From UHGV virus genome UHGV-0232315: a DNA stretch of 35,654 nt. One strand, written 5' to 3'. Position numbers and translations under genes: made by a program. Within the stretch, counting starts at the first letter, position 1. The number at the start of each line of letters is the position of its first letter. Below the pieces are notes generated by a model. It saw nothing but the letters and a program-made list of their open reading frames with translations. It was not told the origin of the DNA and made no database searches. This stretch comes from a virus. Positions 25,418 through 35,515 of the stretch are shown piece after piece.

Positions 25418-25507
25418 TTCTTCGCAATGGAGAACTTTTAAGTTTGCAAAATGGAATAATGCGGTATCATTATTGTGAATTTAGCAAAAATGGGGAGAAC
25501 TCGAAAA

Positions 25508-25726
25508 ATGATGATTTGCCCACTGTGTGGAAGTGCCGCCCATACTCGCAGCAGTTTTCAGGTATCTTCATTGACCAAAGAGCGTTACAACCAGTGCCAG
25601 AACATTAACTGCAGCCATACTTTTGTTACCCATGAAACTTTTGTTCGTTCGATTGCAACGCCAAAAGAGTCAAATCCGGTTCAGCCGCATCCAATGAAAT
25701 CAGGACAGGTAGCGCTCTCTCTTTGA
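25508..25726 (+). CDS. ogr: Ogr/B-family zinc-finger late transcription activator
   Basis: ORF 25475-25726; start placed at ATG 25508 (MMICPLCGSAAHTRSS...ERYNQCQNINCSHTF), Cys4 pattern and length (72 aa) as in P2 Ogr. Confidence 0.85.
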   Translation: MMICPLCGSAAHTRSSFQVSSLTKERYNQCQNINCSHTFVTHETFVRSIATPKESNPVQPHPMKSGQVALSL

Positions 25727-25804
25727 CGCTGCCGCCATTTTGTCGCCATCGTTAAAAAACAGTGCTTCTAACATCATGATCTTAAACAGCTTAAATTTCA
25801 GGCA

Positions 25805-25830
25805 ACAAAAAACCCATTTATGTAAACGGG
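25805..25830 (-). terminator. Weak hairpin plus T-run downstream of int (minus strand)
   Basis: On the minus strand cccgttt-acat-aaatggg is followed by TTTTTT; the stem is short with one mismatch. Confidence 0.3.
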
Positions 25831-25836
25831 TTAATG

Positions 25837-25870
25837 AAAACAATAAGTTAGATTAAAAACAATAAGTTAG
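25837..25870. repeat. Two 15-bp direct repeats (AAAACAATAAGTTAG) spaced 19 bp apart in the ogr-int intergenic (att-like) region
   Basis: Exact copies at 25837-25851 and 25856-25870; candidate integrase arm-type or accessory-factor binding sites. Confidence 0.5.
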
Positions 25871-25891
25871 GTTGGTGGTCAGTGGTGGTTA

Positions 25892-26944
25892 TTACGGGGT
25901 AATGCCAACCGCTGCCGCCACTTTGCCGCCACTTGGCAGCGTTGCCAGAGGATTGAAACGGAGCGCCGTTTCCAGATGATCCGGTGCCAGATGAGCGTAA
26001 CGCATAGTCATTTTTATATCGTGATGTCCGAGGATTTTTTGCAAAGCAAGGATATTTCCACCCGACATCATGAAATGTGCCGCAAACGTATGGCGCAGAA
26101 CGTGTGTCAGTTGACCGCGAGGGAGCACGATTGACGTTTTTTCCATCACGGATAAAAATTGAAAATAGCAGTCTGTGAAGAAATTGAACCCATCAAGCGC
26201 CATGATCTCTTCATAAAGCTCTTTACTGATAGGGATGCTTCTGTTTTTCTTCCCCTTCGTTCTTACAAAGGTAATTCGGTATTTAGTCACCTGTGATCGG
26301 GTAAGGTTTATTGCTTCTCGCCAGCGTGCGCCTGTGCTTAAGCATATCTTGACTACCAGTGCCAGAATTGGGTCCTGACGTTTGCAATCAGCCAGCAGTT
26401 CAACAATCTGCTCATGGGTAAGCCATGCCATCTCTTTTTCTGCGATGGTGAATTTTCGCATGTTCTCCAGTGGGTTTGGATACGACCATTCGCCCAGGCG
26501 GGATAGTTCGCTAAAAACACTACTTAGATAGCTTTGCTCCAGGTTAATGGTGACCGGGCTGGCTCCTTTCTTCCATTTCTCGCTGAAGTAGATCTCACCT
26601 GTCAGGCGTTTATCTCGATAGTGGGCAAACATTTTAGAGGTGAGATCGGTTGCAAGAGGATTGCCCAGAGCGTCAACCATCAGCAGCAATTTGTCATAGA
26701 CATGCTGCCCAGCAGTCAGAGATTTACCATGTAATTTGAACCATAGCTCAACCACGTCTTTCAGTGTTCGACGATCCACTGATTCACCTAGCCAAGGCTT
26801 TGCTTCGGTTTCTTCCATCGTGTGACGCTCAAAAGCCAGAGCTTCGCCTTTGGTGGCGAATTGTTTACGCACACGACGTCCACTACGTCCGGCGGGATAA
26901 CATTCGCACAGCCATTTTCCTGTGGTGAGTTTTCGTACTGCCAT
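25892..26944 (-). CDS. int: Tyrosine integrase
   Basis: 350 aa MAVRKLTTGKWLCECYPAGRSGRRVRKQF... with C-terminal ...HVLRHTFAAHFMMSGGNILALQKILGHHDIKMTMRYAHL catalytic region (R..H-x-x-R..Y). Confidence 0.9.
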   Translation of the reverse strand: MAVRKLTTGKWLCECYPAGRSGRRVRKQFATKGEALAFERHTMEETEAKPWLGESVDRRTLKDVVELWFKLHGKSLTAGQHVYDKLLLMVDALGNPLATDLTSKMFAHYRDKRLTGEIYFSEKWKKGASPVTINLEQSYLSSVFSELSRLGEWSYPNPLENMRKFTIAEKEMAWLTHEQIVELLADCKRQDPILALVVKICLSTGARWREAINLTRSQVTKYRITFVRTKGKKNRSIPISKELYEEIMALDGFNFFTDCYFQFLSVMEKTSIVLPRGQLTHVLRHTFAAHFMMSGGNILALQKILGHHDIKMTMRYAHLAPDHLETALRFNPLATLPSGGKVAAAVGITP

Positions 26945-26969: not shown

Positions 26970-27026
26970 AAATTTAACTGTATGTTTGAACAGTGGTCAA
27001 TGTTTAAAGATCTTCAATCAAACATT

Positions 27027-28358
27027 TCATTGGAGCAAGAAAACTTTTAAGGTGTTTTTGAATATTCTAACAGGGTCTTCTACACCTGCATTTCCTTTTA
27101 AAATATGATAATCACTTATTTCAGCCCATCTGTTTTTTTCATCGTTTTCAGAAGGAAGTAAAGGAGAACCTTCTGGCATATATTTATAAGTTATACCAAA
27201 TAATGCATAATAGTAGATGTTGATGTTATATTGATCTGTCTGATATGGGAGTCTATTAACACCGAAGAAATTAATTATTAATTGTGCATCTATTTTATCT
27301 TCTACGTAGTTAAGGGCCAGTTCACGACCAAACGAATAAAGAATTACTGCAAGGGTTCGATAACAGCAATAGCCTGGTATAAATTTATTGCTGATTTCAT
27401 TTTGAGATAAAATTTGATAAATTTCTAGATATCTTGATAAGGTTTCAACTTCCCGTAGCGACAAGCCTTTTAGTTCGATAAATTTTTGAACTATATGAAT
27501 ACTACTTTCTCCAATTTCTTTTAGTCTTTCAGACTCGTTACATAGCATTCTAAAATGAGAGTTCGAAGCCAAAATTTTATCGTAATTGTTTTCAGTGAAA
27601 GTCACTGGCAGGCTGTAAGTGAATTTTATAAATTTATCAAGATATCTTTCTGAGTCAACACCTGCACCGTAAATATGATTTATTGATGCTTTCAATTGTG
27701 AGATGTTAGCAACTAACAAGAAGTTAAGATTTTCAGTGTCAAAAACATGTTTTATATTTTCGATGATAGAGATGGCAAAGCTTGGTTTACAACGGTCAAG
27801 TTCGTCAATGATAATTGTTATTTTATTTTCGCTAGTTAGTTCAGCAAGTACTTCCTTGAGAGCAAGCAAATGTTTCTTTGCTTCAATATGATCATCAAGC
27901 AGTGCTTCTACAGTACCATCTATAGCTGAGTTAGCCGCATCTTTAATAGCATCTTCGAATTCATCCGCAATATCATCTGCATTTTGTTTTAAAATCCACC
28001 CAGCGCCAGCTTTGAGTACAGTTTTAAGTCCAAATCTCAATGCTGGTAATGCCTTTGATATTAATTCCTTCTTTTCACTCTCTGGATATAATGCAACTAT
28101 TGCAGCCATTATAGTAAGTATGGGAGCATCATTATGATCTTCAGTAAATGCATCAATATATACTACTTTATGCCCAGATTCATTTTTTTCAATCAATGCC
28201 GCTAATTTTTTTGAAAATTCGGTTTTACCGGTACCCCAGTCCCCATCGATAACAATAGGGGATATTTTTAAGGGGGACTCGAGTAAGCTTATTATTTTTT
28301 CAGCAATGATTTTTCTATTATACTCATCTCTGTTTTCAAAAGTCATATCATTATTCAT
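27027..28358 (-). CDS. KAP-family P-loop NTPase
   Basis: Walker A GDWGTGKT (GxWGxGKT KAP signature) and Walker B IIIDELDRC; ORF-track start 28367 is TTG, I place the start at ATG 28358 after AAGG; AT-rich. Confidence 0.65.
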   Translation of the reverse strand: MNNDMTFENRDEYNRKIIAEKIISLLESPLKISPIVIDGDWGTGKTEFSKKLAALIEKNESGHKVVYIDAFTEDHNDAPILTIMAAIVALYPESEKKELISKALPALRFGLKTVLKAGAGWILKQNADDIADEFEDAIKDAANSAIDGTVEALLDDHIEAKKHLLALKEVLAELTSENKITIIIDELDRCKPSFAISIIENIKHVFDTENLNFLLVANISQLKASINHIYGAGVDSERYLDKFIKFTYSLPVTFTENNYDKILASNSHFRMLCNESERLKEIGESSIHIVQKFIELKGLSLREVETLSRYLEIYQILSQNEISNKFIPGYCCYRTLAVILYSFGRELALNYVEDKIDAQLIINFFGVNRLPYQTDQYNINIYYYALFGITYKYMPEGSPLLPSENDEKNRWAEISDYHILKGNAGVEDPVRIFKNTLKVFLLQ

Positions 28359-28369
28359 ATGAAGCAACC

Positions 28370-28555
28370 TTAGTTTTTAGAACATATTTTCTTTGACTTG
28401 CTTTGCGTTCCATCATTGCAAACGAACTTCCCATCAGATGTACAATGTGAAACTCCCCCTTTCTTACCAGAACATGGATAATTTTTTGCAAAACTTGTAA
28501 TAGGTAAAGTAATAAATAAACAAATAAGTAGGATATGTATAGATTTATAAAACAT
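28370..28555 (-). CDS. Small secreted Cys-rich, Lys-rich peptide (predicted signal peptide)
   Basis: ORF 28370-28573; start placed at ATG 28555 after AAGGA; [23 protein letters not shown] then a 38-aa mature part with 4 Cys and 8 Lys; stop lies 11 nt upstream of the NTPase ATG (28358). Confidence 0.5.
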
Positions 28556-28578
28556 ATTTATTTCCTTATACATTAATT

Positions 28579-29142
28579 TTAATAATTGACGATCGCGCTT
28601 CTAATTTTTCCTATGATATCAATTTCATCTATTTTGCATTCAAAGGAACTGCTGCCACCATCGACATTTAGACGACGTCCCGGCAGTCTTGTCAGATTCC
28701 TGATAGCAACCTCGCCATCAATATCAACGATCCACTTACCATCACGTACATCCTCATAATCCGAATCACAGATAAACTCTGATGCGCCATCGATCACAAC
28801 AAAAGGTTTTTTTAGTTTTTCAGGCAAAAAGTTGTTGTCGAAAATGTAGTAACCATCAGGAAGTAGTTTTCCGCTTGATAAAATCTTCCTTTCGATCTCT
28901 TTTGTGTTTTCTTTTTGTGAACTTTCTTTTGAACCTTGCCCAGTAGTTAGCCACTCTAGCGACGTGCCGGTTTCAAGTGCACATTGGATTACCCATTCTG
29001 CCGGGAATGAATCACGCATATAGCGCGTGGCTAAGGTGCTTTTAGAAATGCCCAAATGATCACACAAAGCTTGTCTTGTCTTGAAACCATAGGCTTCAAC
29101 CATGCGCTCTATGGCCCCACGACCGCCTTTTTCCAAATTCAT
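28579..29142 (-). CDS. cI: Immunity repressor CI (phage 186 CI-like)
   Basis: ORF 28579-29148 (GTG); ATG 29142 after GGAG; N-terminal HTH region and C-terminal ...[27 protein letters not shown]... resembling 186 CI. Confidence 0.8.
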
Positions 29143-29267
29143 GGTCACTCCAAGTGAACTTTTACCTTGACGATTTCATGATGTGATCGTATGTTTGCAG
29201 TGTTCACATAATACAAACGATCAGTATTCATCCTGATTAATCATTGCTAAAAGAGGAATGTTGCATC
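29143..29267. promoter_or_regulatory. Lysis-lysogeny switch region (divergent pL/pR-type promoters and operators)
   Basis: Intergenic region between divergent cI and apl; dyads GTGAAC(29155-29160)/GTTCAC(29212-29217) and TGATCGT(29184-29190)/ACGATCA(29217-29223); two GATC sites. Confidence 0.5.
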
Positions 29268-29489
29268 ATGAGACCTAACATTTCAATCACTCTCATCACC
29301 CCCCACGTTACTATAGAAAGATATAGTGAACTCACTGGCTTATCTATCGACACAATTAACGACATGCTTGCAGATGGGCGTTTGCCTCGTCATCGCCTAC
29401 GTAAGGATAAAAAGCGTGAAAAAGTGATGATTAACATTGCTGCGATGACGATCGATGCCCTCTCTGATTGCAACGTGACTATCAACTAG
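29268..29489 (+). CDS. apl: Apl/Cox-type excisionase-repressor
   Basis: ORF 29244-29489; start placed at ATG 29268 after AGAGGA; small basic protein as the first gene of the rightward early operon. Confidence 0.65.
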   Translation: MRPNISITLITPHVTIERYSELTGLSIDTINDMLADGRLPRHRLRKDKKREKVMINIAAMTIDALSDCNVTIN

Positions 29490-29521: not shown

Positions 29522-30031
29522 ATGTTTGACTATCGCATTTCAAAACATCCCCATTTCAATGAAGCCTGCCGGGCCTTCGCCCTACGACACAACATGGCGA
29601 AGCTGGCAGAGCGCGCAGGTATGAACGTTCAAACCTTGCGTAACAAGCTCAACCCGGAACAACCACACCAACTTACTGCGTCAGATATCTGGCAGTTAAC
29701 CGATCTCACTGAAGACCCAACACTGGTTGATGGATTTCTGGCTCAGATTCACTGCCTGCCATGTATACCGGTAAATGAGGTGGCAAAAGAGAGACTGCCA
29801 CATTACGTCATGAGTGCAACCGCAGAGATCGGGCGTGTTGCTGCAGGTGCGGTGTCTGGCGATGTAAAAACCTGTGCCGGTCGTCGTGATGCTATCAGCA
29901 GCATTAATTCTGTAACACGACTGATGGCGCTGGCGGCTGTTTCATTGCAGGCCCGTTTACAGGCTAATCCTGCGATGGCGAGTGCAGTTGATACCGTGAC
30001 TGGCCTCGGTGCTTCATTTGGTTTGCTGTGA
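29522..30031 (+). CDS. cII: CII-like lysogeny-establishment activator (186 CII-like)
   Basis: 169 aa MFDYRISKHPHFNEACRAFALRHNMAKLAERAGMNVQTLRNKLNPEQPH... resembling 186 CII. Confidence 0.75.
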   Translation: MFDYRISKHPHFNEACRAFALRHNMAKLAERAGMNVQTLRNKLNPEQPHQLTASDIWQLTDLTEDPTLVDGFLAQIHCLPCIPVNEVAKERLPHYVMSATAEIGRVAAGAVSGDVKTCAGRRDAISSINSVTRLMALAAVSLQARLQANPAMASAVDTVTGLGASFGLL

Positions 30032-30845: not shown

Positions 30846-31072
30846 TGGCTGATGCAATGGATCTCGTACAGCAGCGCGTTGAAGAAGAACGCCAGCGCCA
30901 TATCCGTGCTGCCCGTGCCAAAACACCGGGCGTGTCACGCGTACTTTGCATTGAATGTGAAGCGCCAATTCCGCCAGCACGACGCCGCGCCATTCCGGGA
31001 GTGCAGCTTTGCATTACCTGTCAGGAAATCGCAGAACTGAAAGGCAAACATTACAACGGAGGTGCTGTATGA
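30845..31072 (+). CDS. TraR/DksA-family C4 zinc-finger protein
   Basis: CIECEAPIP...CITCQ four-Cys motif at the C-terminus of a 75-aa protein; TAATG overlap upstream and ATGA overlap downstream. Confidence 0.7.
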   Translation: MADAMDLVQQRVEEERQRHIRAARAKTPGVSRVLCIECEAPIPPARRRAIPGVQLCITCQEIAELKGKHYNGGAV

Positions 31073-31917
31073 GCACCATCCTGAAATGGGCGGGAAATAA
31101 AACGGCCATTATGGCAGAACTGAAAAAATACCTTCCTGCTGGCCCGCGACTGGTTGAACCTTTCGCGGGTTCCTGTGCAGTGATGATGGAGACGGATTAC
31201 CCCAGCTATCTGGTTGCGGATATTAATCCTGATTTAATCAACCTCTATAAAAAGGTTGCCGCTGATTGTGAATCGTTTATATCTCGCGCCAGAGTTTTAT
31301 TTGAGAACGCAAACAGGGAGATGGCTTATTACAACATAAGGCAGGAGTTTAATTACTCAACTGAAATTACTGATTTCATGAAAGCAGTATATTTCCTGTA
31401 TCTCAATCGTCACGGTTACCGTGGTTTATGTCGCTATAACAAGAGCGGGCATTTCAACATTCCCTACGGTAATTATAAAAATCCGTATTTCCCTGAAAAA
31501 GAAATTCGTGCATTTGCAGAAAAAGCCCAGCGGGCAACATTTATCTGCGCCAGCTTCGATGAAACGCTGGCAATGTTGCACGCGGGGGATGTTGTGTATT
31601 GCGATCCGCCTTATGACGGTACGTTTTCCGGCTATCACACTGACGGCTTCACTGAAGATGACCAGTATCACCTGGCATCCGTTCTTGAACATCGGTCATC
31701 AGAAGGACATCCGGTCATTGTTTCTAACAGTGACACATCCCTGATCCGTTCGCTGTATCGCAATTTCACTCACCACTACATCAAGGCAAAACGCAGCATT
31801 GGCGTGTCAGCTGGCGAGAGTAAATCTGCAACAGAAATCATTGCCACCAAATCAGCTGGGTGGTTTGGTGTCGATTTTGCCAGCGGCTCTGACCGTACCG
31901 TTGAGGTACGCGCATGA
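31069..31917 (+). CDS. dam: DNA N6-adenine methyltransferase (Dam/D12 class)
   Basis: ORF 31009-31917; ATG 31069 after GGAGGTG; N-terminal KWAGNK and catalytic DPPY ([10 protein letters not shown]) motifs. Confidence 0.85.
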
Positions 31918-35362: not shown

Positions 35363-35515
35363 TTACGCGGGTTAACAATTCGTGCTCTTAATAATACCCG
35401 GTATATCAGGCTGATGAACGTAAAAAAACGTTTTACATCAGTAAGATTATTGTATACTGTGAATATAAACAGTGGTTATATATACAGTATTGCGTGTGGT
35501 GTCATAGGAGGAAAA

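What the first reader, a model, noticed from the sequence alone, without database searches (positions are those of the whole stretch)
29143..29267. Compact 186-type genetic switch with nested dyad symmetries
The 125-bp region between divergent cI and apl contains two pairs of inverted repeats (GTGAAC/GTTCAC and TGATCGT/ACGATCA) that are candidate CI/Apl operators overlapping face-to-face promoters.
Basis: partly seen in the sequence, partly recalled or inferred. Interest (0 to 1): 0.25.

Follow-up and report, generated by a model that had tools for sequence, protein, structure and literature searches.

The report
186-type phage immunity switch, ordinary
This 125-bp stretch is the lysis/lysogeny control region of a common E. 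coli P2/186-like temperate phage.

Summary
Window 29143-29267 is exactly the 125-bp spacer between divergent cI (28579-29142, -) and apl/cox (29268-29489, +) of a 186-type phage genome; cII follows.

**The observation.** Both inverted repeats exist at the stated positions. They interleave rather than nest, and as bare 6-7-mers they are no more than chance gives (P=0.15 and 0.39).

**The region.** It is strongly constrained. In 86 relatives with the same CI DNA-binding domain, spacer diversity is about 5-fold below that of neighbouring synonymous sites.

**Best reading.**
- pR is TTGACG-17-TATGTT.
- pL is TTGAAA-17-CAACAT, at the same place relative to the apl start as the annotated pL of 186.
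- The two promoters face each other, with predicted starts about 50 bp apart.
- The CI operators are 17-bp 6-N5-6 sites, consensus GTTCAC-N5-GTGAAC. This is almost the 186 "B-type" site ATTCAC-N5-GTGAAT.
- Proposed sites: O1 29143-59, O3 29202-18, a possible O2 29172-88, and an FL-like distal site inside cI at 28906-22.

GTGAAC and GTTCAC are half-sites of O1 and O3, not partners. The left arm of the TGATCGT/ACGATCA pair sits on a GATC that is kept next to the pR -10 in all heteroimmune relatives examined, so that arm is not immunity-specific.

This immunity class (PhiECO1 type) was already noted in 2011. The verdict is a new member of a known kind, of low interest.

The parts
28579..29142 (-). 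cI immunity repressor gene (187 aa)
   Evidence: ORF. Pfam Phage_CI_repr 3e-33 and Phage_CI_C 6e-29. 35% identity to 186 CI, 70% to the E. coli B/HS prophage CI. Annotated 'phage repressor protein CI' WP_001047318.1.
28906..28922 (.). FL-like distal CI site inside cI: GTTTTC-ttttt-GTGAAC
   Evidence: 10/12 match to GTTCAC-N5-GTGAAC, one of only two hits of at least 10/12 in the 35.6-kb window. Kept at the same offset (-236) in several lineages whose linker protein sequence differs; absent from the B/HS clade. 186 has FL inside cI.
29143..29159 (.). Proposed CI operator O1: GGTCAC-tccaa-GTGAAC.
   Evidence: 11/12 to the consensus and the only exact TCAC-N5-GTGA in the window. Half-sites pi=0.006, spacer pi=0.080. 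Same geometry and TCAC/GTGA core as 186 pB/FL/FR sites.
29167..29195 (+). pR lytic promoter: -35 TTGACG (29167-72), 17-bp spacer, -10 TATGTT (29190-95); start predicted near 29202
   Evidence: Consensus scan. TTGAC(G/A)-17-TAnnn(T/C) is present in 18 of 18 non-186 representatives of related switches; 186 has TTTACT as its -35.
29172..29188 (.). Possible CI operator O2: GATTTC-atgat-GTGATC, in the pR spacer (same centre as the 21-bp quasi-palindrome 29170-29190)
   Evidence: Only 8/12 to the consensus, so not significant alone. It lies midway between O1 and O3 (29 and 30 bp). Flanking halves are nearly invariant while the centre is hypervariable. Position is analogous to the central pR palindrome of 186 and to GACCAC-ttaaa-GTGATC in L021.
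29179..29182 (.). Hypervariable centre of the pR spacer
   Evidence: In the B/HS clade (64 loci), pi=0.41 at 29179 and at 29180, with 3 and 4 alleles, and 13 haplotypes of 29177-85. cI third codon positions have mean pi 0.037 and none has more than 2 alleles.
29185..29188 (.).
   Evidence: Invariant at this position in 18 of 18 representatives of at least 7 groups with different CI N-terminal domains and operators; absent in 186.
29202..29218 (.).
   Evidence: 9/12 to the consensus. Half-sites pi=0.006. Starts 12 nt after the start of the -10 hexamer, where heteroimmune relatives (starts +12 to +14) carry their own perfect dyads: ATTCCC-N5-GGGAAT, GGTTTG-N5-CAAACC, GTACCC-N4-GGGTAC.
29216..29242 (+).
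   Evidence: Direct repeats ATTCAT/ATTAAT 10 bp apart. 186 Apl binds direct repeats about one turn apart between pR and pL. Not conserved in relatives with a visibly similar Apl (my reading), so this is an inference only.
29258..29286 (-). pL lysogenic promoter: -35 TTGAAA (complement of 29281-86, apl nt 14-19), 17-bp spacer holding the apl start codon, -10 CAACAT (complement of 29258-63); start predicted near 29252
   Evidence: Same positions relative to the apl ATG as the annotated pL of 186 (TTGCGA-17-CATGAT). TTGAAA-17-CAnnAT is found in all 14 non-186 representatives. No variation in apl nt 1-26 (pi=0.001). The consensus scan did not call it.
29268..29489 (+). apl/cox gene (73 aa)
   Evidence: PHROG 575 'Cox-like excisionase and repressor' 9e-30. 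Weak N-terminal similarity to 186 Apl.
29522..30031 (+). cII gene
   Evidence: Pfam Phage_CP76 1e-42.

Best explanation
The region is the immunity (lysis/lysogeny) switch of a 186-type member of the P2-like phages (Peduoviridae). It belongs to the operator class first noted as PhiECO1/PhiECO2/PhiSEN1. The proposed mechanism is as follows. (1) A strong rightward lytic promoter pR (TTGACG-17-TATGTT, start near 29202) drives apl-cII and the early operon. (2) A weak leftward promoter pL (TTGAAA-17-CAACAT, start near 29252, with its -35 inside apl codons 5-7) drives cI. (3) The two fire face-to-face with about 50 bp of overlap, so pR activity should interfere with pL as it does in 186. (4) CI binds 17-bp 6-N5-6 sites of consensus GTTCAC-N5-GTGAAC: O1 just upstream of the pR -35, O3 over the pR start, possibly a weaker O2 in the pR spacer (centres 29 and 30 bp apart), and a distal FL-like site 237 bp to the left of O1 inside cI that could loop to pR. 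(5) Occupancy shuts pR and thereby relieves pL. (6) Apl presumably binds direct repeats between the two start sites. Shown here: gene identities; promoter matches and their family-wide conservation; the motif hits and their rarity; and the pattern of sequence constraint. Inferred: actual binding by CI and Apl, the start sites, transcriptional interference and looping.
For: Gene content and order match 186. pR is called by the scan, and a -35/17-bp/-10 match of the same form is present in all 19 representative switches (186 with -35 TTTACT). pL is positionally identical to the annotated pL of 186 and is conserved in all 14 non-186 representatives. There is no variation in apl nt 1-26 although synonymous sites elsewhere vary freely. 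Constraint: spacer pi=0.052 against 0.281 at cI third codon positions, in 53 distinct sequences from 86 loci that share the CI N-terminal domain. Variation falls in the N5 spacers and in the linkers between sites, while all six half-sites have pi of 0.06 or less. Motif: the two best matches to GTTCAC-N5-GTGAAC in 35.6 kb (11/12 and 10/12; 1.45 expected by shuffling) lie 237 bp apart, at the cI start and inside cI, and a 9/12 match lies over the pR start. The same is seen in the complete S21 prophage. The only exact TCAC-N5-GTGA in the window is O1. 186 CI sites at pB, FL and FR are ATTCAC-N5-GTGAAT, CTTCAC-N5-GTGAAT and ATTCAC-N5-GAGAAT, which share this geometry and core. Heteroimmune relatives carry their own perfect 6-N4/5-6 dyads at the position of O3. 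The FL-like site survives in lineages whose linker peptide differs.
Against: There is no binding or transcript data. O3 has one consensus half-site only (3 of 6 symmetric pairs), and O2 is 8/12 and not significant alone. O1 overlaps the cI ribosome-binding site, so part of its conservation could be translational. Spacing of 29-30 bp differs from the two-turn spacing described for the three pR operators of 186. No FR-like site was found. The FL-like site is missing from the most abundant (B/HS) clade. The ogr promoter, where 186 has two CI sites, has only a 7/12 match. The pL hexamers are weak and were not called by the scan. The consensus was noticed by eye in this same sequence before it was scanned.
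Confidence: 0.7

Rival explanations
1. One reading: the two long-range inverted repeats (GTGAAC...42 nt...GTTCAC and TGATCGT...26 nt...ACGATCA) are themselves the operators. Each pair would be bound as one symmetric unit by CI or Apl.
For: Both pairs exist and their cores are conserved in the homoimmune set. The second pair extends to 11 nt with one mismatch (P=0.056 in shuffles) and forms part of a 40-bp imperfect palindrome centred on the pR start (my reading).
Against: 6-7-mer pairs are at chance level. Each GTGAAC-type hexamer has a much closer partner 5 bp away, in the geometry of known 186 sites. The outer pair 29184/29223 changes without compensation. The left arm's GATC is shared by all heteroimmune relatives examined. 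Known Apl/Cox proteins bind direct repeats, not inverted ones.
Confidence: 0.07
2. The conservation reflects only promoters, ribosome-binding sites and leader sequences. The true CI operators are different, for example the ACGAT-based quasi-palindromes ACGATttCAt-g-aTGtgATCGT (29170-90) and 29184-29223.
For: O1 contains the cI Shine-Dalgarno. O2 and O3 overlap pR elements. The 21-bp quasi-palindrome has 8 of 10 symmetric pairs (my count). Positions 29179/29181 are mostly T/A or C/G (37 of 53). ACGAT occurs three times, at 29170, 29186 (inverted) and 29217.
Against: No ACGAT-type site is found at a distal position, whereas the GTGAAC-type motif recurs at the FL-like position. ACGAT at -35 and ATCGT at -10 overlap elements common to heteroimmune relatives. 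13 of 53 sequences have the asymmetric T/G at 29179/29181. RNA folding of either leader is not better than shuffles (z=-1.09 and -0.74).
Confidence: 0.13
3. The TGATCGT/ACGATCA pair matters because of its two GATC sites (29185-88 and 29219-22, 34 bp apart, bracketing the pR start). pR would then be modulated by Dam methylation or SeqA, with the phage's own dam gene lying in the pR operon. This could coexist with CI control.
For: GATC one base upstream of the -10 is invariant in 18 of 18 representatives of at least 7 heteroimmune groups, while the rest of the spacer is unrelated. A dam gene lies at 31009-31917. Both GATCs are nearly invariant in the homoimmune set.
Against: The second GATC is specific to this group. 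186 lacks the GATC. Two GATCs in 125 bp is unremarkable. The library search found no study of Dam control of these promoters. The conserved G(T/C)GATC could instead be a shared CI half-site with a GTGA core.
Confidence: 0.1

Closest known systems
Coliphage 186 lysis-lysogeny switch (cI / pR-pL / apl / cII, with FL and FR sites)
   Same: Same gene order and protein families. Spacer length is 125 against 129 bp. pL hexamers sit at identical positions relative to the apl ATG. pR faces pL. There is a distal site inside cI. The CI site geometry 6-N5-6 with a TCAC/GTGA core equals the 186 B-type sites at pB, FL and FR.
   Different: CI is only 35% identical. At pR, 186 is annotated with three CI sites, described as two turns apart; the dyad I could locate there reads ATCTCTCAATTGGGAGAT (my reading). 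Here pR carries B-type-like sites about 29-30 bp apart, or 59 bp if O2 is not real. Predicted start sites are about 50 bp apart, not 62. No FR was found. Apl is a different Cox/Apl subgroup, and its sites could not be identified. This phage carries dam and a GATC beside the pR -10; 186 has no GATC there.
PhiECO1 / PhiECO2 / PhiSEN1 immunity class of 186-type prophages (Nilsson et al. 2011, PMC3448106)
   Same: Same attachment locus next to rcdA, a 125-nt cI-apl spacer, and a near-identical CI N-terminal domain (first 62 residues identical). The E. coli HS spacer is identical to the E. coli B spacer and 110/125 identical to the window. 519 of 5426 complete E. coli genomes carry this spacer type.
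   Different: The window CI is only about 70% identical overall because its C-terminal domain differs, which is below the paper's '>96%' class criterion. The window lineage has the FL-like site and a KAP NTPase cargo gene that the B/HS lineage lacks. The sections of that paper I read do not map operators.
186 pB promoter control (two B-type CI sites flanking the promoter core)
   Same: Two 17-bp xTTCAC-N5-GxGAAx sites, one at or upstream of -35 and one just downstream of -10, like O1 and O3 around pR here.
   Different: The 186 pB sites are 32 bp apart; O1 and O3 are 59 bp apart. The window's own ogr promoter shows only a 7/12 match.
P2 C/Cox switch
   Same: Face-to-face early and repressor promoters and a Cox-type excisionase/repressor.
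   Different: The P2 C repressor is half the size of CI and probably of different origin, its operators are direct repeats, and there is no cII. It is not the type seen here.

Membership tests
186-type (CI/Apl/CII) genetic switch | Repressor with 186-CI N-terminal HTH domain and 186-CI C-terminal domain | tested here: met
   Pfam PF07022 3e-33 and PF16452 6e-29; alignment with 186 CI.
186-type (CI/Apl/CII) genetic switch | Divergent cI and apl/cox separated by a short spacer (88-129 nt), with cII downstream of apl | tested here: met
   125-nt spacer; apl is PHROG 575; cII is PF06892.
186-type (CI/Apl/CII) genetic switch | Face-to-face pR and pL promoters with overlapping transcripts | tested here: inconclusive
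   pR has a clear consensus match. pL is supported only by positional homology to 186 and by conservation. Transcription itself cannot be tested with these tools.
186-type (CI/Apl/CII) genetic switch | Three CI operators at pR spaced two helical turns apart | tested here: not met
   Two credible sites lie 59 bp apart, with a possible third midway at 29-30 bp spacing. 186 spacing is taken.
186-type (CI/Apl/CII) genetic switch | Distal CI sites FL and FR about 300 bp either side of pR | tested here: inconclusive
   An FL-like 10/12 site lies 237 bp left of O1, conserved in several lineages. No FR-like site of at least 9/12 was found.
186-type (CI/Apl/CII) genetic switch | Array of Apl direct repeats at helical phasing between pR and pL, and at attP | tested here: inconclusive
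   Only weak nnnnATC repeats at 10-bp phasing, and one shared hexamer with the attP arm.
186-type (CI/Apl/CII) genetic switch | CI assembles into a 14-mer wheel that wraps or loops DNA | not tested
   The C-terminal domain family is present. Oligomeric state was not modelled.
PhiECO1 immunity class (Nilsson et al. 2011) | CI more than 96% identical and 125-nt spacer 98-100% identical | tested here: not met
   CI is 70% identical overall, although the first 62 residues of its N-terminal domain are identical to the E. coli B and HS proteins. The spacer is 110/125 (88%) identical to E. coli HS. The proposed operator half-sites are identical, so the two are probably homoimmune; this is an inference.
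P2-type C/Cox switch | Small C repressor (half the size of CI), direct-repeat operators, no cII | tested here: not met
   187-aa CI of the 186 family, with cII present.

The most novel reading that the evidence does not exclude
The 186-like switches of this large clade carry an extra layer that 186 lacks. A GATC fixed one base upstream of the pR -10 is invariant across at least 7 heteroimmune groups, and a phage dam gene lies in the pR operon. This would make the lytic promoter sensitive to methylation state or to SeqA. In addition, the centre of the pR spacer (29179-80) is a hypervariable spot that may tune promoter or operator strength between otherwise near-identical prophages.
Probability: 0.1. 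Interest if true: 0.45.

Novelty: new member of a known kind. Interest (0 to 1): 0.17.

Why it matters
The practical value is modest. The analysis gives a testable operator and promoter map for a prophage immunity class present in about 10% of complete E. coli genomes, including E. coli B/BL21, HS and ATCC 8739. That class has no mapped operators in what I could find: no record in the phage collection searched matches the spacer, and the sections of the 2011 survey I read map none. It also suggests that a CI of the 186 family can use B-type-like sites at pR with a spacing different from 186. That bears on how general the 'wheel' geometry is. Nothing here challenges current understanding of these switches.

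Tried and rejected
1. RNA-level role for the dyads. Folding the pL leader (29252 to 29125, minus strand) and the pR leader (29202-29290) gave z=-1.09 and -0.74. The small ATCAG/CTGAT hairpin is broken by the A-to-C change at 29223 without compensation. Rejected.

2. FR-like site. Scans at 8/12 or better to the right of pR gave only weak hits inside conserved coding sequence, at +263 and +485. Not found.

3. Independent test at the ogr (186 B homologue) promoter. In E. coli HS, in S21 and in the window there is only GTATCA-ttatt-GTGAAT, 7/12. Inconclusive.

4. Apl sites by comparing 29196-29257 with the attP arm 25780-25895. Only GATTAA/TTAATC is shared. Unresolved.

5. Direct similarity of the spacer to deposited phage genomes. 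No match.

6. The primary 186 operator papers (Dodd & Egan 1996 and 2002) are not in the library. I used the annotated 186 record instead.

7. My early assumption that window 1-25800 is host DNA was wrong. The window holds ogr and an intact attP, so it is a permuted phage genome.

Full report
**What is there.** Window 29143-29267 is exactly the 125-bp spacer between cI (28579-29142, minus strand, 187 aa) and a 73-aa apl/cox gene (29268-29489). cII follows at 29522-30031.
- CI matches both Pfam domains built on 186 CI: PF07022 at 3e-33 and PF16452 at 6e-29. CII is PF06892.
- Apl is PHROG 575, 'Cox-like excisionase and repressor'.
- The window is a circularly permuted P2/186-like phage genome. 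It carries ogr (about 25508-25726), an intact attP and then int.
- The same element is integrated next to rcdA in E. coli IH5 and S21.

**The observation.** Both inverted repeats are present where stated. They span 29154-29207 and 29184-29223, so they interleave rather than nest.
- Base-shuffles of the spacer (keeping its composition) give 2.4 perfect 6-mer inverted pairs on average, against 5 observed (P=0.15).
- A 7-mer pair has P=0.39.
- Only the 11-nt, one-mismatch extension of the second pair is borderline (P=0.056).

As raw repeats they are therefore not evidence of anything.

**Relatives and constraint.** Protein-guided searches gave 86 loci whose CI N-terminal domain is the same or nearly so, although C-terminal domains diverge to about 58-72% overall CI identity.
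- They hold 34 distinct spacers, all readable in register without gaps.
- Nucleotide diversity is 0.052 in the spacer, 0.281 at cI third codon positions, and 0.001 in the first 26 nt of apl. Nearly the whole spacer is under selection.
- This is the class that Nilsson et al. 2011 noted as PhiECO1/PhiECO2/PhiSEN1 with '125 nt long spacers'. The E. coli HS spacer is identical to that of E. coli B and 110/125 identical to the window.
- 519 of 5426 complete E. coli genomes carry the spacer. No record in the phage collection does.

**Promoters.** pR is TTGACG-17-TATGTT at 29167-29195. All 18 non-186 representatives of related but heteroimmune switches have TTGAC(G/A), exactly 17 bp, then TAnnn(T/C).

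For pL I used the annotated 186 record. In 186 the -35 is at apl nt 14-19 and the -10 at nt -10 to -5.
- At the same positions the window has TTGAAA (complement of 29281-86) and CAACAT (complement of 29258-63), 17 bp apart.
- All 14 non-186 representatives have TTGAAA-17-CAnnAT.
- Predicted starts are near 29202 for pR and 29252 for pL, about 50 bp apart, against 62 bp in 186.
- These are predictions; there is no transcript evidence.

**Operators.** The 186 record annotates these CI sites:
- pB: ATTCACAAAAAGTGAAT and ATTCACGAATTGAGAAT
- FL: CTTCACTTAATGTGAAT
- FR: ATTCACTTTATGTGAAT

The window holds GGTCAC-tccaa-GTGAAC at 29143-59. It is the only exact TCAC-N5-GTGA in 35.6 kb.

Scoring every 17-mer against GTTCAC-N5-GTGAAC gives only two hits of at least 10/12, where 1.45 are expected by shuffling:
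- 29143-59 (11/12), here called O1;
- 28906-22 (10/12), inside cI and 237 bp to the left of O1.

A 9/12 hit, GTTCAC-ataat-ACAAAC at 29202-18, lies over the pR start and is here called O3. The complete S21 prophage gives the same picture.

Further support comes from three observations.
- The site inside cI is kept at the same offset in several lineages with different linker peptides. It is absent from the B/HS clade.
- Heteroimmune relatives carry their own perfect 6-N4/5-6 dyads at the position of O3.
- Within the homoimmune set, variation falls in the N5 spacers and in the linkers between sites, and the half-sites are nearly invariant.

A third site, GATTTC-atgat-GTGATC at 29172-88 (O2), lies midway between O1 and O3. 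Its flanks are invariant and its centre is free to vary, but it scores only 8/12.

**The second dyad.** Its left arm sits on a GATC one base upstream of the pR -10. That GATC is invariant in all 18 heteroimmune representatives but absent from 186, so it is not an immunity determinant. Its outer pair shows no compensation. Its right arm overlaps the weak half of O3 and a second GATC that only this group has. RNA folding does not support a structural role.

**Limits.**
- O1 overlaps the cI Shine-Dalgarno.
- O3 is asymmetric.
- The spacing differs from the two-turn spacing described for 186.
- No FR-like site was found, and the ogr promoter test was inconclusive.
- Apl sites could not be identified.

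**Verdict.** This is an ordinary 186-type switch from an immunity class already noted in the literature, with a plausible but untested operator map. It is a new member of a known kind and of low interest.

Noticed in passing
window 29179-29182: A hypervariable spot at the exact centre of the pR -35/-10 spacer. Among 64 loci of the otherwise near-identical E. coli B/HS clade, positions 29179 and 29180 have pi=0.41 with 3 and 4 alleles, and 29177-85 has 13 haplotypes. cI third codon positions average pi 0.037 and none has more than two alleles. This could be an uncontacted operator centre, a quasi-palindrome mutation hotspot, or tuning of promoter strength.
   Followed up: partly
window 29185-29188; same position in L001-L003, L005, L011-L021, L024, L025: A GATC one base upstream of the pR -10 hexamer is invariant in 18 of 18 representatives of at least 7 heteroimmune CI groups, although the rest of the spacer is unrelated. 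186 lacks it. The phage carries a dam gene (31009-31917) downstream in the pR operon.
   Followed up: partly
window 27027-28573: Cargo sits between int and cI: a KAP-family P-loop NTPase that matches the PADLOC candidate defence system PDC-S20 (1e-171), plus a 67-aa ORF (phrog_6000) with a hydrophobic N-terminus. The E. coli B and HS relatives lack the KAP gene.
   Followed up: partly
window 26978-26993 and 35457-35472: Two exact CTGT-N8-ACAG LexA-box-like sequences. CTGTATGTTTGAACAG lies between the end of the KAP gene and the int start. CTGTGAATATAAACAG lies downstream of the DinI/Tum-like gene and, by my mapping from the IH5 annotation, upstream of the next cargo gene. The total count in the window is at chance level.
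   Followed up: no
window 25780-25892: The window contains an intact attP: the phage right arm, then the core AACAAAAAACCCAT, then the phage left arm. This follows from comparison with attL and attR of the S21 prophage. ogr lies at about 25508-25726, so the window is a permuted whole phage genome and not a prophage with host flanks. Two direct repeats AACAATAAGTTAG (25840-52 and 25859-71) look like Int arm sites.
   Followed up: partly
cI 28579-29142 against L005-L105: CI is modular. The N-terminal DNA-binding domain is identical over its first 62 residues between the window, E. coli B and HS, and nearly identical across the other lineages. Linkers and C-terminal domains differ, with overall CI identity falling to 58-72%. 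Operators are therefore shared while the oligomerisation domains diverge.
   Followed up: partly
L021 (Enterobacteriaceae bacterium G50), pR region: This switch has two different 17-bp dyads 30 bp apart, in the same geometry as the window's O2 and O3. GACCAC-ttaaa-GTGATC lies in the pR spacer and ATTCCC-gcaat-GGGAAT lies after the -10. This recalls the recognition of two site types by 186 CI.
   Followed up: no
window 25459-25475 (upstream of ogr): GTATCA-ttatt-GTGAAT overlaps a possible -10 of the ogr promoter. It is only 7/12 to the proposed CI consensus, but its right half equals the 186 B-type half-site. It may be a weak counterpart of 186 pB control.
   Followed up: partly
NZ_CP168949 (E. 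coli IH5), L108 13600-15300: In strain IH5 the copy of this prophage is truncated after the tail-fibre gene and abuts hemB. The tail sheath through ogr region has been lost.
   Followed up: no
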